DNA of 32,000 nt from positions 108,144 to 140,143 of the forward strand of contig JBHLRO010000008.1 of the NCBI GenBank assembly GCA_048882505.1, given 5' to 3'. Both the position numbers and the translations under genes were made by a program. Position 1 is the first letter of the stretch. Every line of letters starts with the position of its first letter. The notes beneath the pieces were generated by a model. It did no database searches. It was not told the DNA's origin and saw only the letters and a list, made by a program, of their open reading frames with translations. The DNA is from Candidatus Thorarchaeota archaeon. Its GTDB lineage: Archaea > Asgardarchaeota > Heimdallarchaeia > Hodarchaeales > Hodarchaeaceae. Of the stretch, positions 7,074-17,654 are shown piece by piece.

Positions 7074-8456
7074 ATGGCAAAAGAAAAAGCCCGACTGAAG
7101 ATAACCAAGTGTTCTGCATGCGGAAAAGAGGTACCCGAAGCTAAATTTTGCATGAACTGTGGAAAAGATTTAACTCAAAGCATCTCTCAAGTGCCAACTG
7201 AAAAGAATCTGATAATTCCATGTCCTTTTTGCAATCGGAACGTCCCGCACACAGCTTTCTGTATTGCCTGTGGAAATCCCCTTCAGAAAGATATTGAACA
7301 CGACCCGGTCAAAAAGGATTCTTACCCTACGGAAGAGGACCAGGAACTTGTTGTTTGTCCTCTATGTCGAGAGAAAATACCGACGGATCATAAATATTGT
7401 CATTTGTGCGGAGCTACAATTAAGAAAGATGATTCGGGCTTTGTTTTGGAAGAACCAAATCGTTTGGTCTGTCCTCAATGTCTAAAACCAAATTCCCCGA
7501 CATCTGGACATTGCATTTATTGTGGTAGCAGACTCTCTCTTCAAAAAGAAAAAACGACGAACATCACGAAGCCCTTCAACGGCTTTCAATATGATGTCCC
7601 TTATTTCTTTGAACCCGCGTCATTACCTTTATCTTCTCTCCGTCAAGCCTCAATGCGAAGTATTTTTCCGATAAAAAGTACGATCGTCCATTCTACGTAC
7701 TTTGGTGTTAAATCCAAGGCAAGACGTATTAATTTTTTCGCTAGAAATTTCGGTGGTTATGATATCTCAAATTTAACCAATTACCTCGGCGCTTTTTTGT
7801 TGGTGGCTGCTGTATACGTCTATTGGCACTCCTTCAGGTACTCTATTATCGGTACAAACACTGCCGACCTTCCCACTGAAATTCTGTATACACTACTTAT
7901 GGTAATGTTGTTGACGGCCTTGGTCATGCTGCCCACATGGCTTTCAACGTACCTGGTTTATCGATCTTCAGGCTACCGCCTTAAATTTAGACTTGATTCC
8001 AGTAGGATCCTTATGACGATCATATTTAACATCATTTGGCTTTTTATAATTCGAGGATTCGGACCAATAATCCTACGGATGGGAGATTTCCAAAATCCTG
8101 CTAGCCGTATAGTTTTAAACAGACAGTTCAAGCGTGGCATCGTCATGGGAGTGATTATTTCCACCGGAATAACAATACTTATTGCTGGTATAACCATCCT
8201 TGTTATGGGAATCCCTGGATCATTTGCTGGGCTGTTTTTACAGGGGGATCCATTAAAAAATCATGTTTTAATCTTATTTTTTGGAGCGACATGGATCCTA
8301 TTGGTTTTATTGCTTCCAATTGGAGACTACTTTGATAAAATACTGAAAGAGTGGAACATCGTGGGTTATTTTATTCTGATTGCTATAAGTTTTCTCGTTT
8401 TGACACTTTCTTTTAATTTAATAAGCATTCTTGCCCAACCCTCCTATAACGCTTGA
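7074..8456 (+). CDS. Four zinc-ribbon (CxxC..CxxC) N-terminal region fused to a polytopic membrane domain resembling a degenerate archaeal M50 peptidase
   Basis: Eight CxxC motifs in four pairs (CSAC/CMNC, CPFC/CIAC, CPLC/CHLC, CPQC/CIYC), then about 6-7 hydrophobic helices. Confidence 0.75.
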   Translation: MAKEKARLKITKCSACGKEVPEAKFCMNCGKDLTQSISQVPTEKNLIIPCPFCNRNVPHTAFCIACGNPLQKDIEHDPVKKDSYPTEEDQELVVCPLCREKIPTDHKYCHLCGATIKKDDSGFVLEEPNRLVCPQCLKPNSPTSGHCIYCGSRLSLQKEKTTNITKPFNGFQYDVPYFFEPASLPLSSLRQASMRSIFPIKSTIVHSTYFGVKSKARRINFFARNFGGYDISNLTNYLGAFLLVAAVYVYWHSFRYSIIGTNTADLPTEILYTLLMVMLLTALVMLPTWLSTYLVYRSSGYRLKFRLDSSRILMTIIFNIIWLFIIRGFGPIILRMGDFQNPASRIVLNRQFKRGIVMGVIISTGITILIAGITILVMGIPGSFAGLFLQGDPLKNHVLILFFGATWILLVLLLPIGDYFDKILKEWNIVGYFILIAISFLVLTLSFNLISILAQPSYNA

Positions 8457-8468
8457 TTCTTCAGCGTT

Positions 8469-10886
8469 TTAATCGCTTGGATAAATATTTCCAGAGTTTT
8501 GCTCTACCTTCTCAATAAAAAAGCACCATTTTTGGATTGTTGGTTGTGAAATGTTGTATACTGGAAGGGCTTTAAACCGTAAATGCCATGGGATACCTTC
8601 ATTCGTTAGTTTTTCGGCAGAAAATTCATTAACGATATTTTCAGCTTTTTGATACAATATGTTCTGGAATTTTTCTCCCACTCCTGATTCTTTTAACTTT
8701 GGATGCTGAATGACATTAAGAGTTCGTACATCAACATTAAAATTCCCGAATAGCTCCTGTGCCTGTGAATTGTGGGATAAAACCTTACCTAGATTATCTA
8801 CATATATGATCCCTTGATTAATGTTTTCTCTTAGAATGTTCAATTCTTGTTGGACTTGACGAAAGGATTCTTCGATTATTGACACCGCAGTTATGTCGGT
8901 TACCGTGACAACCGCGCCCACTACCTCACTATCAGCGAGGAGGGGTACCGAGGTGACCTTTGATTTTACCTCTTTCCCCTTCCTCGTAAGATATGTTATG
9001 TCCATAAATGTTTCACTTCTATTTCCCCTCAACCTATCTTTAACCAATTCCTTGATATGTTCGTGATCACGCTCTGGGAAAAAGCTATAAAGACTTCGAC
9101 CTATTAATTCCCTACTAGATGTATATTCCAGGATCTTCGCCATGCGTGTGTTCGCCATTGTCACTCTCTCTCTGCGATCCCAAACATAAACCCCCTCCGG
9201 GATGCTTGTGAGAATCTCCTCCAAAAACTCTTTAGTTGTTTGCAATTCTGAGGCTCTTGCTTTTTCCTCTGTAATGTCTCTGATAAATCCAAAAGTCTCT
9301 TGAATGTCTCCGCTAACACTCTGAATCGCCGCTCCCGTTACTAGCGTATGAATTAATTTTCCAGATCTATGAAGGAAGGCTAATTCATAGGATTCTGGGA
9401 GTTCTTCTCCAGTCTCTCTACCATGGGTAGTTTCTTTTAACTTTTTGGCACTTTCTTGCGTTAAGAAATCAAGAACCGGGACTCCAATGATTTCGTGCGG
9501 AGAATATCCAAGCATCTTGGCCATACTTTCGTTTATGTAAGTAGTATTCTCATCAGGTACATCGCTCACCCAAACCCCAATGGGAGTCCTTTCGATGAGT
9601 ACACGGAATCTTTGTGCGATAGCATTTCTCTCTGCTTCCGCAAAAACCCAGGCAGAGATGTCTCGCATAACAAATGCTACTTGATATCCCGCTGAATGTT
9701 CGATTGTAAAGCCTCGTGATTCTATTATATGCTTAGAGTTATCGGCCCGGTTTGTAATCGAATACATCAGTTCAGAATGACGTTCTGAGGATGAAGGATC
9801 GAGTATGTTTAGGAAACGCTCATGAAGCCAGTTTATATCTTTTGAATGAATTTCTCCTTGGCTTGGATCAAACTTACCAGGATTTAATTTAAGCATAATT
9901 TCCGAAACTGGTTTGCCTACTGTTTCTGCTTTTGATAGGCCACTTATTTGCGTGAAGGCCGAATTAACATCTAAAATCACTTCGTCCTTTGTCATCAAGA
10001 CGATTCCTGTATCTATTAGTCCCTCAAATATTTTTCGATGTTTCTCTTCTGAATCAATTAGAGCTTGTTGAGTCTGTATTGTGTGCGTGATATCAGTTGC
10101 CAATGCTTGAATTGCTCGAACTTCACCGGTCTTTTTGCCGTAGATTGGCCGTGCCGTTAGATCGAGGTGGATGATTTTGCCCTCTTTGGTAATCCCACGG
10201 AGGATGGTTCCAATGGTCAAAGATAGTCCGTCTTTGATTTTTTTTATCAAATCTGCCCATATAGGGCGATCTTCATCCATCGATAACTCTTTAAACGATA
10301 AATTCCCCATTTCCTCTCTATCATATCCGAATTTCAAAAAGAATTCAACATTTGCCTCCTTTAAAGTTCCCTGGGTATCAAAAATCAAAATTAAACCCGT
10401 TGAATTCTCGAATAGATCCCGATATCGGGCTTCAGATTTTTTAAGCTCGTTCTGCAATCTATATCTGTCAATCGTCTGACGAATAGAAGTCGCCATAAGG
10501 GAATAATAACCTGGTTGAACCCGTTTGATGAAATACCCTGAAGCTCCCTGTAATAATGCCTGTGATGCGATTTCCTCTGATCCTTGGCCGGTTATGAATA
10601 TAACGGGGATATCAATTCTCAGTTCTTCCTGAAGTTTTCTTAGAAAATTAATTCCATCAGCTGGCAAGACCATTTCATTAATCGTCAAGGTACCAGGCAA
10701 TTTGTGATCGCATAGAATGCAGTCGAATGTCTCTACCTCAAGTTTTTCTAAGGCAGATTTTGCTGAATATACTGTGGTTATTTTAAAACTAGGGTCTACA
10801 TCACCAAATTTTTTCACCAGTAGCCCAAGGAACCACTCATCGTCATCTATGGCTAGTATTTTCCTCTCGGATATCCCTGATGACAT
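8469..10886 (-). CDS. Response regulator receiver domain followed by five PAS domains, no output domain
   Basis: REC: KILAIDDD, FDCILCDHKLPG (phospho-Asp), PVIFITGQG, GASGYFIK. Five PAS units start at RYRDLFENS, KHRKIFEG, RFRVLIERTP, FLEEILTSIPEG and ILRENINQG. The start is uncertain (10886, 10901 or 10934). Confidence 0.9.
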   Translation of the reverse strand: MSSGISERKILAIDDDEWFLGLLVKKFGDVDPSFKITTVYSAKSALEKLEVETFDCILCDHKLPGTLTINEMVLPADGINFLRKLQEELRIDIPVIFITGQGSEEIASQALLQGASGYFIKRVQPGYYSLMATSIRQTIDRYRLQNELKKSEARYRDLFENSTGLILIFDTQGTLKEANVEFFLKFGYDREEMGNLSFKELSMDEDRPIWADLIKKIKDGLSLTIGTILRGITKEGKIIHLDLTARPIYGKKTGEVRAIQALATDITHTIQTQQALIDSEEKHRKIFEGLIDTGIVLMTKDEVILDVNSAFTQISGLSKAETVGKPVSEIMLKLNPGKFDPSQGEIHSKDINWLHERFLNILDPSSSERHSELMYSITNRADNSKHIIESRGFTIEHSAGYQVAFVMRDISAWVFAEAERNAIAQRFRVLIERTPIGVWVSDVPDENTTYINESMAKMLGYSPHEIIGVPVLDFLTQESAKKLKETTHGRETGEELPESYELAFLHRSGKLIHTLVTGAAIQSVSGDIQETFGFIRDITEEKARASELQTTKEFLEEILTSIPEGVYVWDRRERVTMANTRMAKILEYTSSRELIGRSLYSFFPERDHEHIKELVKDRLRGNRSETFMDITYLTRKGKEVKSKVTSVPLLADSEVVGAVVTVTDITAVSIIEESFRQVQQELNILRENINQGIIYVDNLGKVLSHNSQAQELFGNFNVDVRTLNVIQHPKLKESGVGEKFQNILYQKAENIVNEFSAEKLTNEGIPWHLRFKALPVYNISQPTIQKWCFFIEKVEQNSGNIYPSD

Positions 10887-10989
10887 ATTAGTTCCAATCA
10901 TGCTTATCTCACAATGTCCCGAGGCTCTACCCATTCCTGGGGCTTATATGTAAGGTTTTTTGTTTGAATTCGCCATGAGAGTTTGGGTC

Positions 10990-11238
10990 TCAGACTTTGT
11001 ATACCTTATCGCCCTTTCTAACTCGTTCTGGAACCTTTAATCCAACCAAGGTTCCAGCAGAGACAGAATCCACGTCAGCACGATCTATCTGTAGACTTTC
11101 AACAACCATCTCAAAATCTGTGGTAGCTCCCCTAATAGAAAGCTTATCACCGATTTTTACCGATCCGTTTGTAACATTCAAGACAGCTACGCCAACCTTT
11201 GTGAAGTAGTTATCTATTTGTCCTATTTCTTCGTCCAT
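10990..11238 (-). CDS. Small stand-alone EF-Tu domain II-like / U32-peptidase C-terminal-like beta-barrel protein
   Basis: IGQIDNYFTKVGVAVL...VKIGDKLSIRG.TTDFEMVVESLQID...V..G..VGLKV..RVRKGDKVYKV matches this family pattern. A GGTGA RBS precedes ATG 11238. Confidence 0.75.
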   Translation of the reverse strand: MDEEIGQIDNYFTKVGVAVLNVTNGSVKIGDKLSIRGATTDFEMVVESLQIDRADVDSVSAGTLVGLKVPERVRKGDKVYKV

Positions 11239-11263
11239 ACTTATCACCTAACATTTGGGCGGG

Positions 11264-11272
11264 TTTTATAAA
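11264..11272 (-). promoter_or_regulatory. Putative archaeal TATA box for the 10990-11238 gene
   Basis: Minus strand reads TTTATAAAA about 26 nt upstream of ATG 11238. Confidence 0.4.
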
Positions 11273-11358: not shown

Positions 11359-11401
11359 GGAAGTATGGATTCAAAAACCTTTTGAACCATCCAATACTTC
11401 C
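11359..11401. other. Imperfect 43-nt inverted repeat (hairpin) in intergenic region
   Basis: GGAAGT-ATGG-A-TTCAAAA-ACC-TTTTGAA-CCAT-CCAAT-ACTTCC gives 7+4+6 bp stems with bulges. It lies downstream of the longin-like pair. Confidence 0.6.
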
Positions 11402-11459: not shown

Positions 11460-12506
11460 TTAAAGAAGTCTCTTCCACATCCTACGGATTTTTTCTTTCA
11501 AGGAGGATCCAGAAGATTTAGAAATTTCTTGAAACGTATCTAATAGATCTTCAGTAGACAATGGATCGATAAGTTGTGACACGTAATCCAAATATTCCTT
11601 GACAAGAAGCTTTCTAAGCCCTGGTTTAATATCTTCAAGCACGTGGTTAGGAAGAGACAGAAACGAATTCAGGAATTCGTGTTGATTGCAAAGCTGAGAA
11701 AACGAGGTGTCAAGAACGAGGAAGTAAACCTCACCATAAACAAATTCAAGACTGGATAATATATGGGTACCAAATACCAAGCGTTTGGGTCTTGCTCCAC
11801 CGAACAATGTCTGTACAAAATCAATTATCACCGATAGATACCCTGCTAGTATTACATCCCTTTCGACATTCCATGAAATGGGCATTTCTCCGCCTCCGAA
11901 CATAGACATAAGGGCCCATCCCTCGGGGGTAATTTGGTCGATCAGGCCCTTCTGTTTTCGCAAATTCCAGTGTAACAACAACAATTCTTCAAAAGAAAGC
12001 ATTGAAAAATTGGAAGACCCTCTACCGCAGATTTGGCTAATCATCTCCCGATGTCCAGGATTAAGGTCAATGATAATGTTTTGGAAAATTGATTCTATTA
12101 TTTTGGCTTCATTCTCTTGTTTCACGTTTGAAACTGCATGGGCGAACAAGATGGAGGCTTGACCTACAAGAACCGCCTTGATTTGTTCTGCCATTGTTTC
12201 AGGCAAGCCCTCCTTTGCAGAAATCAGCTTTAAAGTAATTGCTGCATCCGAACAAACGAAAAAGAATTTATTCTGCAATGACACAATAAAGACTTCAGAT
12301 GCCTTTAGGCCTGCATATTTTTTGACTTCAAATTCTATTGAAGCCACTGAATTTTCTCCGAAAATTTCTTGAGCGATATTGCCCAGTCCCCTTAAGAAAT
12401 TGACCACAAAAGTTTTAAATTCATAGTCAGGGCTGCCAAATGACCACTCGATCTTATTATCAAATACAAATAGTGCCCAATTTTCATCAGCGCGAATAGA
12501 CTCCAC
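11460..12506 (-). CDS. Putative tandem (two-domain) longin-like protein B
   Basis: Two repeats of a beta-beta-alpha-beta-beta-beta pattern; the second reads WALMSMFGGGEMPISWN..DVILAGYLSVIIDFVQTLFG..PKRLVFG...LEFVYGEVYFLVLD. It is clearly paralogous to the upstream gene. GTG start 7 nt after the partner's stop. Confidence 0.6.
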   Translation of the reverse strand: MESIRADENWALFVFDNKIEWSFGSPDYEFKTFVVNFLRGLGNIAQEIFGENSVASIEFEVKKYAGLKASEVFIVSLQNKFFFVCSDAAITLKLISAKEGLPETMAEQIKAVLVGQASILFAHAVSNVKQENEAKIIESIFQNIIIDLNPGHREMISQICGRGSSNFSMLSFEELLLLHWNLRKQKGLIDQITPEGWALMSMFGGGEMPISWNVERDVILAGYLSVIIDFVQTLFGGARPKRLVFGTHILSSLEFVYGEVYFLVLDTSFSQLCNQHEFLNSFLSLPNHVLEDIKPGLRKLLVKEYLDYVSQLIDPLSTEDLLDTFQEISKSSGSSLKEKIRRMWKRLL

Positions 12507-12513
12507 TTCCGGA

Positions 12514-13551
12514 TTAAAATCTTCCGAAAATACGCGAAAGTATTGTACGAACTTCTCCTTTCTTTCTTGGTTGATATCTTTTTTTGATCAGATCGTTAAT
12601 TTCCTGTGTCTCAAGTATCTCTGATTCATATCCAATGATTTCATCGATTAGACGTTTATGCAGAGAACTATAGAGGTCTTCTTGTACATGCCGGCTCATG
12701 CTAAAGTAGCGATCATGGAACTCATCGATCTGCATAAGGGAATGGACAGGAGTATCGATAGCAAGGAAATATTCGTCCTTTCCATTCACAAAAAACAACC
12801 GATTGATATTATTGGTCCCAAACGTAATCTGTCCAGGACCACCTGTTTCAAATATCGATTTTATGAAAGCAATTATGATTCCTAGATATCCCGCTAATAC
12901 TACTGGATCACGATCTCTCACATTATAATCTAAATGGATTTCACCCCCAGAAAGATGACTAACAAGGGCCCACCCCGATGATGACAATGGTTTTGTGAGC
13001 TCGGGCTGTTTTCTCAGATAGTAGTGTAAGTATAAGAGATGATCAAGTGGTAGCATGGAGAAATTACTTGAATTCTCAGAAACGATCTTGGGAATTTCCT
13101 CCTGATAGTTTGGATCGATGTCCAAGATTATGTCCTGCCATAATTTGGTGAGATAATCTCTTCTATCAGCTGTCTCGGCTTCTGTTATACATTGCCCGTA
13201 TATCATTGCAGCTTGGCCCACCAAAACTGCCGAGATAGCATCTTGGATATCTGTTGGGATTCCCCCTTTACCTTCTATCAATTTAAGTGTAATTTGAGGA
13301 TCTGATAAAATTAAAAAGAATCTATTCATTAGACTAACAATGAATATTTCTGATGACTGATGATAGGAACGTTTCTTGAGTTCAAATTCAATAGATGCGA
13401 CTCCGTGTTGCCCGAACAATTCCTGACCGATTTGGCCAAGACCTGTTAAAAAATTGACAACAAAGGTTTGAAACTCCTCATCAGGATCCCCAAAATGCCA
13501 TTTTACCTCTTTCTCGATAACGAACAAACAGAAAAATTCATCTACTTTCAT
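12514..13551 (-). CDS. Putative tandem (two-domain) longin-like protein A
   Basis: Same two-domain pattern as protein B, with shared blocks FVVNFL.GLG.I.QE.FG..VASIEFE, AVLVGQA, SSNFSML, LRKQ, GWAL and LAGYL. ATG 13551 aligns with the start of B; the ORF track extends to 13638. Confidence 0.6.
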   Translation of the reverse strand: MKVDEFFCLFVIEKEVKWHFGDPDEEFQTFVVNFLTGLGQIGQELFGQHGVASIEFELKKRSYHQSSEIFIVSLMNRFFLILSDPQITLKLIEGKGGIPTDIQDAISAVLVGQAAMIYGQCITEAETADRRDYLTKLWQDIILDIDPNYQEEIPKIVSENSSNFSMLPLDHLLYLHYYLRKQPELTKPLSSSGWALVSHLSGGEIHLDYNVRDRDPVVLAGYLGIIIAFIKSIFETGGPGQITFGTNNINRLFFVNGKDEYFLAIDTPVHSLMQIDEFHDRYFSMSRHVQEDLYSSLHKRLIDEIIGYESEILETQEINDLIKKRYQPRKKGEVRTILSRIFGRF

Positions 13552-13663
13552 AAAAAGCGGATCCACTAAGCTAGATAAGGAGTCAGACTCCAATAATAAT
13601 CTTTTTATTTTTTTTGCTAAGAGATAAAACCTCATCAAAGTCGTCGAAGTAATAACAGAAGAG

Positions 13664-16113: not shown

Positions 16114-17070
16114 TTAATCTAAAGATATCACCGAGCCTGGTATTCGTAAAAGATTCAGATTAGATTCGAAATATTCCTTTATTTCGTTAGCAAATGAAGC
16201 TAGGGGAGAGATTTCTAGACCAGATTCCAATTTCTCGATCATCGACCGTACAGAGTTTAAATATCGGGTGTTTAAACTGAAACCCGAACTGACGATTGCT
16301 AAAACCTGCTTGCTGAATTCTTTCTTAATTAGATTGTCCGGAAGCCTTTCTGATAATTTAATTAAGGCTTCTACGGACGTTCGGTATGCTTTATCAGCAC
16401 CAATAAGAAATGGTATCGGAGAATTTGAGTCGAATTTGATTTTGGCTTCATGAAATGTTCTGTTGGCTTCTATTATCGTTTCTACTATACTAGGATCAAT
16501 TTTCATATGCATATCAGAAATTCCTGCAGTTTTTTCCTCTGATAATGGCCAATGATTGGCAATCACTGTCTCGATGATATCAAGGCTGCCCAGAATTGAT
16601 TCTAAATTCTTTTTGACCTGAGATTGATCTTCAAACCTCTTCTTGAGCTTATCAAGACGTTGTTTTTGGCTTTTCACTTGCATATTAACTTTTTTTGATG
16701 AGTATTGTTGCCCCTTGAGTTTGTTGACTTCCTCAATAAAATCGCCCTTTTGCTGCTGTAGAACTTCAATTGAATTCTCTAGATTCTTTTTCATGATCTC
16801 TAGTTCTGTTATGATCTCTTTTGTGTGTGAAACCTCATTTTGTAACTTATTTAGTCTCTTTAACAAGGTTTTTTTCTCTTCAGCCGATTCTAAATTGGAA
16901 TTTTCAATATTTGGTCGTATGTTTTCCAAATCAGCCTGCTGACGGATTTTTAACAACAAACTTTGCATTTTTTTTTCTTTATCACCAAGATCAGTTAGCT
17001 CTTGAGTTAATAGGGCTTTTTTTTGGAGATGATCCAAGAAATCTTCTTGGATTCTCACCTGAAGAGTCAA
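16114..17070 (-). CDS. Hypothetical protein: long N-terminal coiled coil plus helical C-terminal domain
   Basis: About 165 aa of heptad-rich E/K/Q/L sequence, then a more globular helical region. The start (TTG 17070 or GTG 17058) is uncertain. Confidence 0.7.
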   Translation of the reverse strand: MTLQVRIQEDFLDHLQKKALLTQELTDLGDKEKKMQSLLLKIRQQADLENIRPNIENSNLESAEEKKTLLKRLNKLQNEVSHTKEIITELEIMKKNLENSIEVLQQQKGDFIEEVNKLKGQQYSSKKVNMQVKSQKQRLDKLKKRFEDQSQVKKNLESILGSLDIIETVIANHWPLSEEKTAGISDMHMKIDPSIVETIIEANRTFHEAKIKFDSNSPIPFLIGADKAYRTSVEALIKLSERLPDNLIKKEFSKQVLAIVSSGFSLNTRYLNSVRSMIEKLESGLEISPLASFANEIKEYFESNLNLLRIPGSVISLD

Positions 17071-17096
17071 TATTTCCGTAATCTTGTCGTCCAGGA

Positions 17097-17654
17097 CTAG
17101 GAACTCCCGTATATCTGTTTCTTTAGCTTTTCAATATCCGCATCTAGTATTTTCATTTTCTCGTTAATTTCGTCATATTCTTGGGAAATTTGAGTTAAAT
17201 AAACGCCTTCATCGCGATCTAAATCCGAAGTTGAAAGAGACTTTATTACTCTCTTTTGAACTTCAATATCTTCTTGAAGGGCATTTTGTCTAGAATTTAG
17301 AATTTCAACGGTTTTTTTTAAACTCGTGGCTTCTCTATCTAAAATGATTTTCTTGCTTTCAAGCTCCATAACCATGTTTTTGTTGGAAGTTATTGTACCA
17401 CTTAATTCTTCCGGATTTTCATTAGCATCATGACTGTTTAGTAAATATTTCAATTCTGGAGTTTCAGAAAGTTTTTCATCGATCTTGTTTTGCAGATCAT
17501 GTAAGATTTCTTGTTTTTGTGTAATTTTACGTGTGAGCAATGCTTGAACACGTTGGTTTTTCGCACGATTTCGTTCAAAAATTTGCTTCTTCTCCTCCAA
17601 AACTTCATCAAGCTCAATTTCGGATAATTGAGACAATTGATCTCGCGATTTCAC
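17097..17654 (-). CDS. Hypothetical coiled-coil protein
   Basis: 185-aa ORF that is almost entirely heptad-like and charged, 26 nt upstream of the next coiled-coil gene. Confidence 0.7.
   Translation of the reverse strand: MKSRDQLSQLSEIELDEVLEEKKQIFERNRAKNQRVQALLTRKITQKQEILHDLQNKIDEKLSETPELKYLLNSHDANENPEELSGTITSNKNMVMELESKKIILDREATSLKKTVEILNSRQNALQEDIEVQKRVIKSLSTSDLDRDEGVYLTQISQEYDEINEKMKILDADIEKLKKQIYGSS

What the first reader, a model, noticed from the sequence alone, without database searches (positions are those of the whole stretch)
11460..13551. Co-transcribed paralogous pair of double-longin-like proteins: candidate archaeal forerunner of Mon1-Ccz1-type heterodimeric GTPase regulators
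Seen: two adjacent ~345-aa genes 7 nt apart that align end to end (roughly 40% identity by eye). Each contains two units with the pattern strand-turn-strand, long helix (FVVNFL.GLG.I.QE.FG and LAGYL.II..F...IF), then three strands (VASIEFE/SEIFIVS/FFLILSD and GQITFG/RLFFVNG/YFLAID). Known: this is longin topology (b1-b2-a1-b3-b4-b5-a2). Unit 2 resembles the Mon1/Fuzzy first longin pattern (S..GkPI...l.Gvl.alvsF...irsi.aG..kfvFl). Eukaryotic Mon1-Ccz1, HPS1-HPS4 and Inturned-Fuzzy are heterodimers of paralogous multi-longin subunits acting as Rab GEFs, and Asgard archaea encode longin domains and many small GTPases. Inference: an obligate A/B heterodimer regulating a small GTPase, i.e. a proto-endomembrane GEF/GAP module. 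No GTPase gene is visible in this window.
Basis: partly seen in the sequence, partly recalled or inferred. Interest (0 to 1): 0.85.

Follow-up and report, generated by a model that had tools for sequence, protein, structure and literature searches.

The report
Paired two-longin-domain proteins in Hodarchaeales
Two neighbouring genes of an Asgard (Hodarchaeales) archaeon encode sister proteins, each built from two longin/roadblock-type domains, that probably form a membrane-attached docking platform for small GTPase switches; they resemble the eukaryotic Mon1-Ccz1 activators in layout, but descent from a common ancestor is not shown.

Summary
Gene A (12514-13551, minus strand, 345 aa) and gene B (11460-12506, minus strand, 348 aa) lie 7 nt apart and are 42% identical from end to end.

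No Pfam, NCBIfam or PDB sequence match exists. The proteins have two longin domains, not three.

The link to GTPases is indirect. In relatives the same two-domain unit is fused to Ras-like GTPase, pseudo-GTPase or Arf-like domains.

The family is essentially confined to one order. This genome holds six paralogs. A and B are old sister clades and are adjacent wherever B exists, but B was lost at least twice. A complex prediction gave only weak support for A-B binding.

Most A-clade tails end in a conserved basic amphipathic motif (RIFGR[L/F]), a candidate membrane anchor.

Verdict: a new variant of the known Asgard longin/roadblock GTPase-regulator kind. The forerunner-of-Mon1-Ccz1 claim is unproven. 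The scan's first readers noted what looks like the same family in another genome (e1-5444848, e1-5444850).

The parts
12514..13551 (-). Gene A, 345 aa, a subfamily-A member of the two-longin-domain family
   Evidence: ORF and translation. AF2 model pLDDT 87.3, pTM 0.83. The A clade has 48 rows with 100% SH-aLRT support.
13117..13530 (-). A, first longin-type domain (residues 8-145): b8-12, b15-20, a25-46, b51-56, b68-74, b78-83, a85-94, a100-124, a128-145. There is no helix before the first strand.
12982..13116 (-). A, linker (residues 146-190) carrying the family's most conserved motif, N163-F164-S165-x-L ... L-L-x-L-H176-x-x-L-R180
   Evidence: Invariant and nearly invariant columns in A1 and A4. 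Its function is unknown.
12574..12981 (-). A, second longin/roadblock-type domain (residues 191-326): b195-199, b205-209, a216-234, b239-245, b249-256, b261-265, then helices up to 326
12517..12573 (-). A, basic amphipathic C-terminal tail (residues 327-345, ending RTILSRIFGRF): candidate membrane-targeting helix
   Evidence: The tail has pLDDT below 50. 15 of the 20 A-clade tails listed end in a close form of RR.[FL][LF].RIFGR[LF], and the best 11-mers of all 20 have hydrophobic moment 0.44-0.88 and net charge +1 to +5. Function is inferred.
12507..12513 (-). 7-nt spacer between the stop of A and the GTG start of B
   Evidence: Sequence. It leaves no room for a promoter, so co-transcription is inferred.
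11460..12506 (-). Gene B, 348 aa, a subfamily-B member with the same architecture
   Evidence: AF2 model pLDDT 81.5, pTM 0.79, with the same order of elements. The B clade has 15 rows with 100% support.
12063..12476 (-). B, first longin-type domain (residues 11-148)
   Evidence: DSSP on the model.
11517..11927 (-). B, second longin/roadblock-type domain (residues 194-330)
   Evidence: DSSP on the model.
11463..11516 (-). B, C-terminal tail ending EKIRRMWKRLL: amphipathic and basic
   Evidence: Hydrophobic moment 0.89, net charge +4. In the window's B and in about half of the B tails listed, and in all five C tails, the end reads K/R-[MIV]-W-x-K/R-[LIY]-L.
13601..13615 (-). A/T-rich TATA-like box (AAAAAAAATAAAAAG) about 55 nt upstream of the ATG of A, in the 112-nt divergent spacer shared with the aminotransferase gene
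   Evidence: Sequence reading. Inferred, not tested.
11373..11377 (-). T5 run about 85 nt after the stop of B: possible archaeal terminator ending the A-B unit
   Evidence: Sequence reading. The next gene has its own TTTATAAAA box at 11264-11272. Inferred.

Best explanation
A and B are paralogous subunits of a family restricted to Hodarchaeales. Each is made of two homologous longin/roadblock-type alpha/beta domains. A helical linker with an invariant motif (NFS.L...LL.LH..LR) joins the domains, and a basic amphipathic tail ends the protein. The two genes are read as one bicistronic unit.

Most likely the proteins pair through their longin/roadblock domains, as A-B here. In species that lost B, A would pair with itself or with another paralog. 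The tails would hold the dimer on the membrane. The dimer would act as a docking platform for one or more of the cell's roughly 60 Ras/Arf-type small GTPases, controlling nucleotide state (GEF- or GAP-like) or location.

Shown here: the genes, their paralogy, the internal domain repeat, the predicted fold class, the fusions to GTPase domains in relatives, and the phylogenetic pattern. Inferred: dimerisation, membrane binding, the partner GTPase and the catalytic direction.
For: Fold: both models are confident (pLDDT 87 and 82) and show the pattern b-b-a-b-b-b-a twice. The internal repeat is supported by hhalign at probability 90%.

Fused relatives: P0105, P0118, P0125 and P0131 carry the unit plus a Ras domain with an intact P-loop (NKxD in three of them); Pfam Ras scores are 1e-25 for P0105 and 1e-33 for P0118. 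Nine long forms carry a P-loop-less domain homologous to that Ras domain, hhalign 96%, E 1.3e-9. P0129 and P0140 carry an Arf-like domain ahead of the unit.

Pairing: A and B form separate, well-supported clades with matching branching. They are adjacent in G000, G060, G067, G069, G070 and G074.

Complex prediction: weak support. The score was 0.46 against a best control of 0.00. That mark was reached by 58 of 80 solved complexes and 2 of 110 mismatched pairs. At 0.60 or under it was reached by only 7 of those 80 solved complexes and by both mismatches that passed. The runs agree in at least 43% of contacts and the partner's pLDDT is at least 76.

Tail: a basic amphipathic C-terminus recurs in subfamilies A, B and C, most uniformly in A and C.
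Against: No sequence-level membership in any longin or roadblock family was found. Pfam, NCBIfam and PDB profile searches are empty. Only 1 of 44 members touches Robl_LC7 (E 0.008) and 1 touches Intu_longin_1 (E 0.07).

No GTPase gene lies within 30 kb of A/B. No GTPase neighbour recurs across the six paralog loci of this genome.

B is absent from G058, G061, G063, G064 and G071, so the heterodimer cannot be obligatory for A.

Fusions in distant subfamilies do not prove that the unfused A and B bind a GTPase.
Confidence: 0.6

Rival explanations
1. Specific homolog or forerunner of the tri-longin-domain Rab GEFs. In this reading the A-B heterodimer is the archaeal counterpart of the LD1-LD2 core of Mon1-Ccz1, Fuzzy-Inturned and HPS1-HPS4, and it exchanges nucleotide on a Rab-like GTPase.
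For: The best named whole-chain fold hits for both A and B are TLD subunits, aligned over their first two longin domains. The pair consists of paralogous subunits, as in TLD GEFs. LD2 matches an Asgard cluster in which 48% of members carry Fuz_longin_1, TM 0.50 by hit. One member shows Intu_longin_1 at E 0.07.
Against: There are two domains, not three. TM is only about 0.2 with rmsd 16-23 A. TLD subunits filled the whole-chain hit lists, and to my knowledge they are nearly the only solved chains with consecutive longin domains, so any tandem-longin protein would hit them first. AlphaFold DB ranks four entries higher (probability 1.0, TM 0.33-0.38; one named a zinc-ribbon protein, three unnamed), and entries named roadblock proteins follow at ranks 12 and 19. 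At domain level MglB and roadblock tie with or beat Mon1. No eukaryotic protein appeared in an exhaustive profile search of 1.84 billion proteins. hhalign against the genome's Fuz_longin_1-like family gives only 41% probability over 40 columns. The family is limited to one order, and B is dispensable.
Confidence: 0.15
2. Signal-transduction adaptor of the two-component system. In this reading the profilin-like domains act as PAS/GAF-like sensor or protein-interaction modules that work with the neighbouring response-regulator/PAS protein, not with GTPases.
For: The order A-(B)-85-aa gene-response regulator with PAS domains was seen in 6 of the 8 related genomes examined; one of the other two stretches ended at a contig end. 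Only 13 receiver domains exist in this genome, and two of them lie next to family members: C8 beside A/B, and C9 53 nt upstream of the C9 paralog. Tandem PAS proteins appear among the Foldseek hits.
Against: PAS hits have low probability (0.1-0.44). The single long helix between strands 2 and 3 is the roadblock/longin pattern, not the multi-helix PAS pattern. The kinase next to the C9 paralog is not conserved in four other genomes. Each neighbouring gene has its own TATA-like box. The GTPase fusions in relatives are not explained by this reading. Response regulators and roadblock GTPase regulators can also work together, as RomR and MglB do in Myxococcus (PMC9481161), so this rival partly overlaps the best explanation.
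Confidence: 0.12
3. Structural adaptor unrelated to GTPases, for example a roadblock/LC7- or profilin-like cytoskeleton or membrane scaffold.
Against: Repeated, independent fusions of the unit to Ras-like, pseudo-GTPase and Arf-like domains. The nearest solved domain match is MglB, a GTPase regulator.
Confidence: 0.1

Closest known systems
Tri-longin-domain Rab GEF subunits (Mon1-Ccz1, Fuzzy-Inturned/CPLANE, HPS1-HPS4/BLOC-3)
   Same: Consecutive longin-type domains in one chain. Two paralogous subunits encoded together. They are the best named whole-chain fold matches, aligned to LD1-LD2. A membrane-binding element is plausible in both.
   Different: Two domains instead of three. No detectable sequence homology. 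TM about 0.2. The subunits here are 42% identical, and one of them is dispensable in related species. No Rab partner or GEF activity is known.
MglB and other prokaryotic or Asgard roadblock (Robl/LC7) proteins, and the LAMTOR subunits of Ragulator
   Different: Those are single-domain proteins of about 120 aa, with an N-terminal helix, that form homodimers or simple heterodimers. Here two domains are fused, LD1 has no N-terminal helix (longin-type order), and a conserved linker motif and a basic tail are added. There is no adjacent MglA-like gene.
Asgard multidomain small GTPases fused to longin or roadblock domains (Tran et al. 2024, PMC10933270; Liu et al. 2020 preprint, 10.1101/2020.10.19.343400)
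   Same: Relatives of A/B are such fusions: unit plus Ras, unit plus pseudo-GTPase, and Arf plus unit. The lineage and the inferred logic (regulator and GTPase in one chain) are the same.
   Different: A and B are the unfused, duplicated, tail-bearing form. I found this particular two-domain unit described in none of the papers searched.
Longin-domain GAP subunits (FLCN-FNIP, NPRL2-NPRL3, C9orf72-SMCR8) and their Asgard look-alikes (PMC12290439)
   Same: Heterodimers of paralogous longin-bearing subunits that act on Rag or Arf GTPases.
   Different: There is no DENN or NPRL2-type C-terminal domain. The GP motif before strand 2 is absent: in LD1 the conserved G21-x-P23 follows strand 2, and in LD2 the loop reads GGE[IL]P in the family but GGEIH in A. 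No arginine finger could be placed.

Membership tests
Longin/roadblock (profilin-like) domain superfamily | Core of two strands, one long helix and three strands, with further helices packing on the sheet | tested here: met
   DSSP of the AF2 models of A and B shows this order twice per protein.
Longin/roadblock (profilin-like) domain superfamily | Significant structural match to solved roadblock or longin domains | tested here: inconclusive
Longin/roadblock (profilin-like) domain superfamily | Sequence-profile match to Pfam Robl_LC7, Longin, Sybindin or Fuz/Intu longin models | tested here: not met
   A and B have no hit at E up to 10. Among 44 diverse members, one hits Robl_LC7 at E 0.0077 and one hits Intu_longin_1 at E 0.073.
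Longin/roadblock (profilin-like) domain superfamily | Works as a homo- or heterodimer | tested here: inconclusive
   The A+B complex prediction gave weak support: 0.46 against a best control of 0.00, a range in which passes are more often wrong than right unless the guess was likely beforehand.
Tri-longin-domain Rab GEFs (Mon1-Ccz1 type) | Three consecutive longin domains per subunit | tested here: not met
   Each protein has two alpha/beta domains followed only by helices and a tail.
Tri-longin-domain Rab GEFs (Mon1-Ccz1 type) | Sequence homology to Fuz_longin_1-3, Intu_longin_1-3 or Mon1 models | tested here: not met
   hhalign against the genome's Fuz_longin_1-like family gives probability 41% over 40 columns. 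No eukaryotic hit appeared in the exhaustive profile search.
Tri-longin-domain Rab GEFs (Mon1-Ccz1 type) | Whole-chain structural similarity | tested here: inconclusive
   They are the top named hits, at E 3e-4 to 1e-2 and probability up to 0.95. But TM is about 0.2, and uncharacterised entries, some named roadblock or zinc-ribbon proteins, rank higher in AlphaFold DB.
Tri-longin-domain Rab GEFs (Mon1-Ccz1 type) | Obligate heterodimer of two paralogous subunits | tested here: inconclusive
   A and B are adjacent and diverge in step where both exist. B is lost in at least five genomes. The complex prediction is weak.
Tri-longin-domain Rab GEFs (Mon1-Ccz1 type) | Nucleotide-exchange activity on a Rab GTPase | not testable with these tools
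   This needs biochemistry.
MglB-type roadblock GAP | Single roadblock domain of about 120-160 aa encoded next to its MglA-like GTPase | tested here: not met
   A and B are two-domain proteins of about 345 aa. No Ras or Arf match lies within 30 kb.
Longin GAP subunits (FLCN, NPRL2, SMCR8 type) | GP motif at the loop before strand 2 of the longin domain, plus a catalytic arginine; DENN or NPRL2 C-terminal domain | tested here: not met
   Motif position read from alignments A1 and A3 and from the models, against the definition in PMC12290439. No DENN-like domain appears in the model.

The most novel reading that the evidence does not exclude
A and B form a membrane-tethered di-longin heterodimer that is the closest surviving archaeal relative of the LD1-LD2 catalytic core of the eukaryotic tri-longin Rab GEFs (Mon1-Ccz1, Fuzzy-Inturned, BLOC-3). 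It activates a Rab-like GTPase in Hodarchaeales. The GTPase-fused relatives would be evolutionary intermediates in which regulator and switch sit in one chain.
Probability: 0.13. Interest if true: 0.85.

Novelty: new variant of a known kind. Interest (0 to 1): 0.5.

Why it matters
Small GTPases and their longin/roadblock regulators organise eukaryotic membrane traffic. Asgard genomes hold many of both, but almost no regulator has been matched to a function, and gene order rarely helps.

This family offers a concrete set to test. It is a duplicated, co-transcribed pair with a predicted membrane anchor. Natural fusion proteins point to Ras-like and Arf-like partners. Natural 'B-less' species allow a comparison of the paired and unpaired states.

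If the pair proves to be a GEF with a Mon1-Ccz1-like interface, it would push the multi-longin Rab activators back before eukaryotes. If not, it still adds a lineage-specific two-domain architecture, and a pseudo-GTPase fusion, to the Asgard GTPase toolkit.

Tried and rejected
Sequence searches found nothing usable.
- Pfam and NCBIfam scans of A and B gave only noise.
- Profile searches of the PDB with A1 and A4 gave only coiled-coil noise.
- A member-by-member Pfam scan of 44 diverse relatives gave two isolated weak hits.

Leads that were dropped.
- AlphaFold DB hit 2 is a 'zinc ribbon domain-containing protein', so I asked whether the window's zinc-ribbon ORF 7074-8456 hides another tandem unit. 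Its C-terminal half is hydrophobic membrane sequence, so I dropped it without a profile comparison.
- I looked for a GTPase near A/B and found none within 30 kb.
- The C20, C5 and C19 paralog loci have unrelated metabolic neighbours.
- The 562-codon open frame on contig C11 (35312-36997) has a Ras domain that is the best own-genome match to two of the four fused Ras domains. Its N-terminal part aligns to LD2 at only 7% probability, so it is not a family member.
- hhalign of the family against the genome's Fuz_longin_1-like, Ras-adjacent family (A5) gives probability 41% over 40 columns. No homology claim is made.
- The histidine kinase upstream of the C9 paralog is not conserved in other species.

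Limits of the tools.
So I could not check helix packing (longin against roadblock for LD2) or map conserved residues.
- Only one complex job was allowed, so an A-A homodimer, A with the C paralogs, and GTPase docking were not tested.
Full report
**1. Observation**

- Gene A runs 12514-13551 (ATG, 345 aa). A longer TTG frame reaches 13638, but all orthologs begin at the MxVDxNW position.
- Gene B runs 11460-12506 (GTG, 348 aa).
- The stop of A and the start of B are 7 nt apart.
- BLASTP gives 42% identity over the whole length, E 1e-96.
- No Ras or Arf gene lies in the window. The window is C8:108144-140143 and the nearest GTPase match on that contig ends at 86425.

**2. Fold**

AlphaFold2 with family alignments gives confident models: A has pLDDT 87.3 and pTM 0.83, and B has pLDDT 81.5 and pTM 0.79.

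Both show the same order of elements.
- The first domain is strand-strand-long helix-strand-strand-strand followed by three helices (A residues 8-145). No helix precedes the first strand, which is the longin order.
- A linker follows (residues 146-190) with the family's most conserved motif: N163-F164-S165, H176 and R180.
- The second domain has the same core (residues 195-265) followed by helices up to about residue 326.
- A low-confidence tail ends the protein.

The two domains are homologous to each other: hhalign of the N-terminal against the C-terminal half of the family alignment gives probability 90%, E 1.5e-6, over 114 columns.

**3. What the fold resembles**

Sequence searches find nothing. 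Pfam, NCBIfam and PDB are empty. Among 44 diverse family members, one touches Robl_LC7 (E 0.0077) and one touches Intu_longin_1 (E 0.073).

Whole-chain structure searches agree on the fold class.
- Foldseek against the PDB puts Inturned/Fuzzy (CPLANE), Mon1-Ccz1 and BLOC-3 chains on top for both A and B. The values are E 6e-4 to about 4e-2 and probability up to 0.8, but TM is about 0.2.
- In Swiss-Prot models MON1 fills the list (best E 2.6e-4, probability 0.95), together with Inturned and Fuzzy. Each is aligned over its first two longin domains.

Single-domain comparison does not separate the candidates.
- LAMTOR, Rag C-terminal domains and dynein LC7 are tied with these.

Other libraries add context.
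- AlphaFold DB clusters rank four entries above the eukaryotic ones (probability 1.0, TM 0.33-0.38). One is named a zinc-ribbon protein and three are unnamed. Entries named roadblock/LAMTOR2 or roadblock/LC7 follow at ranks 12 and 19.
- The ESM Atlas links LD2 to an Asgard cluster in which 48% of members carry Fuz_longin_1 (TM 0.50 by hit). It links LD1 to an Asgard GTPase-fusion cluster.
- Tandem PAS proteins appear only at low probability. The single long helix between strands 2 and 3 argues for roadblock/longin rather than PAS.

My reading is that these are two longin/roadblock-superfamily domains. The Mon1/Fuzzy resemblance is real at the level of layout. To my knowledge, TLD subunits are nearly the only solved chains with consecutive longin domains, so any tandem-longin protein would hit them first. 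That resemblance is therefore not evidence of specific descent.

**4. The family**

- The word-indexed search found 73 relatives. All the named ones are 'hypothetical protein' from Hodarchaeales, Hodarchaeota, Heimdallarchaeota or 'Promethearchaeota' MAGs.
- An exhaustive profile search of 1.84 billion representatives found only 68 clusters, and I recognised no eukaryotic protein among them.
- In a scan of 400 Asgard genomes the family is present in 21 of 21 species of the window's genus-level group and in 2 of 2 genomes of the sister family in the same order. It is absent from 376 others at E up to 1e-5, although only five candidates were scored per genome.
- The window's own genome holds six members: A, B, two C-type copies (C9:70801-71829 and C20:21523-22512) and two divergent D-type copies (C5:73592-74548 and C19:14326-15282).
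- In the tree, A (48 rows), B (15 rows) and C (5 rows) are each supported at 100% and together form one clade. D is sister to a group of long forms.

**5. Link to small GTPases**

The link comes from relatives, not from gene neighbours.
- P0105, P0118, P0125 and P0131 carry the two-domain unit followed by a Ras-family domain. All four have an intact P-loop, and three of them also have NKxD. Pfam Ras scores are 1e-25 for P0105 and 1e-33 for P0118.
- Nine further proteins of about 550 aa carry a C-terminal domain with no Pfam hit and no P-loop. That domain is homologous to the Ras domain of the first group (hhalign 96%, E 1.3e-9), so it is a pseudo-GTPase.
- P0129 (labelled Odinarchaeota) and P0140 carry an Arf-like domain ahead of the unit.

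Fusions of longin or roadblock domains to GTPases are known in Asgard archaea (PMC10933270; 10.1101/2020.10.19.343400). I found this particular unit, and the pseudo-GTPase form, described in none of the papers searched.

The genome has about 56-63 Ras/Arf matches, but none lies near A/B. Only the C9 paralog has Ras genes 4-8 kb away. The downstream one keeps its place in three of the four other genomes examined, within a block that is conserved as a whole.

**6. Is the pair conserved?**

The block aminotransferase (divergent) / A / (B) / 85-aa gene was found in all eight related genomes examined. The response-regulator/PAS gene follows it in six of them.

B lies directly after A in G000, G060, G067, G069, G070 and G074, and probably in G068 and G072 at contig ends. 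The database pairs sit on the same contigs with adjacent locus tags. The A and B trees branch in step.

B is missing from G058, G061, G063, G064 and G071. The A of G071 nests among close relatives that do have B. The A genes of G058 and G063 sit in a separate subclade. So B was lost at least twice.

The duplication is therefore old, and adjacency is kept wherever B exists. But A can do without B, so the heterodimer is not obligatory.

The one complex prediction allowed gave weak support. The score was 0.46 against a best control of 0.00. That mark was reached by 58 of 80 solved complexes and 2 of 110 mismatched pairs. At 0.60 or under it was reached by only 7 of those 80 solved complexes and by both mismatches that passed. 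The runs agree in at least 43% of contacts and the partner's pLDDT is at least 76. Close cousins of a true partner can also pass, so this does not separate A-B from A-A.

**7. Tails and transcription**

- 15 of the 20 A-clade tails listed end in a close form of RR.[FL][LF].RIFGR[LF]; the others keep a basic amphipathic end. The window's B and about half of the B tails listed, and all five C tails, end in K/R-[MIV]-W-x-K/R-[LIY]-L.
- The best 11-residue windows of the A tails have hydrophobic moments of 0.44-0.88 and net charge +1 to +5. The window's B and the C tails give 0.76-0.89 and +2 to +4, and the other B tails are weaker.
- From memory, this resembles the C-terminal membrane-targeting helix of MinD. 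An earlier first-stage note (e1-5416371) made the same point.
- The tails are unstructured or helical at low confidence in the models. Membrane binding is an inference.
- Upstream of A lies an A/T-rich TATA-like box (13601-13615). After B come a T5 run (11373-11377) and then a TTTATAAAA box (11264-11272) for the next gene. So A-B looks like a bicistronic unit of its own.

**8. Surroundings**

Only 13 receiver domains exist in this genome. Two of them lie beside family members. The one near A/B is conserved in related species. The one upstream of the C9 paralog is not.

A link to two-component signalling is therefore possible. There is a precedent in the Myxococcus MglA/MglB/RomR module (PMC9481161). 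The evidence here is weak.

**9. Verdict**

- The best-supported reading (about 0.6) is a dimeric, probably membrane-attached longin/roadblock platform for small GTPases, with the direction of regulation (GEF or GAP) unknown.
- The specific 'forerunner of Mon1-Ccz1' reading fails two membership tests: three longin domains, and sequence homology. It rests on weak layout similarity, and I give it about 0.13-0.15.
- The finding is a new variant of a known kind. It is interesting as a testable set (pair, fusions, natural B-less species, tail), but it is not a surprise for the field.
- First readers of this scan noted what looks like the same family in another genome (e1-5444848, e1-5444850). Earlier follow-ups described other Hodarchaeales longin-roadblock partners that do sit next to Rab-like GTPases (e1-1066876, e1-2879186, e1-5416507). 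I could not show those to be homologous to this family.

Noticed in passing
window 10990-11247 (-): An 85-aa stand-alone protein matches only EF-Tu domain 2 (Pfam E 2e-6, below the cut-off). It has its own TTTATAAAA box at 11264-11272. It sits directly downstream of A or of A-B in all eight related genomes examined. Its role is unknown.
   Followed up: partly
window 8469-10934 (-): An 821-aa protein has a receiver domain and about four PAS domains but no recognisable output domain. It is one of only 13 receiver-domain genes in the genome. It follows the A-(B)-85-aa block in 6 of the 8 related genomes examined.
   Followed up: partly
G000 C9:68842-71845 (L015 8842-11845): The C9 paralog of the family starts 53 nt after a receiver-GAF-PAS-HATPase hybrid kinase. 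This adjacency is not conserved in four other species. The downstream block of two SDR genes, two ORFs and a convergent Ras GTPase is conserved in three of them.
   Followed up: partly
G000 C9:62625-64516 (L015 2625-4516): A 244-aa protein with a sub-threshold Fuz_longin_1 match (E 4e-5) and conserved C-terminal cysteines lies just upstream of a 189-aa Ras-family GTPase. A second such pair is at C13:56201-57052. The family is Hodarchaeales-wide (23 relatives).
   Followed up: partly
proteins P0098, P0102, P0108, P0113, P0115, P0116, P0120, P0121, P0123 (sister family of the order, e.g. G079): These long forms of about 550 aa join the two-longin unit to a Ras-like domain that has lost its P-loop (hhalign 96% to the intact fused Ras domains). 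They look like a pseudo-GTPase fusion, which I did not find described.
   Followed up: partly
proteins P0129 (719 aa, labelled Odinarchaeota) and P0140 (785 aa): These multidomain proteins have this order: an N-terminal segment with a GP motif (HPKSGPK in P0129, HPTRGPE in P0140), an Arf-like GTPase, a second GP-motif segment, then the two-longin unit. The GP segments may be FLCN/SMCR8-type longins. This was read by eye only.
   Followed up: no
G000 C11:35312-36997: A Ras-family GTPase lies at the end of a 562-codon open frame. The upstream part contains one roadblock/longin-like stretch. Its GTPase domain is the best own-genome match (40-42% identity) to two of the four Ras domains fused to the unit (P0105, P0131) and among the top four for the others.
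   Followed up: partly
window 16114-17654 (-): A 318-aa coiled-coil protein and a 185-aa protein, both without Pfam hits, keep their place beyond the aminotransferase gene in most related genomes examined.
   Followed up: no
G000 C6:47000-58000: Four Ras/Arf GTPase matches and three receiver-domain genes cluster within about 11 kb. This hints at cross-talk between two-component signalling and small GTPases in this organism.
   Followed up: no
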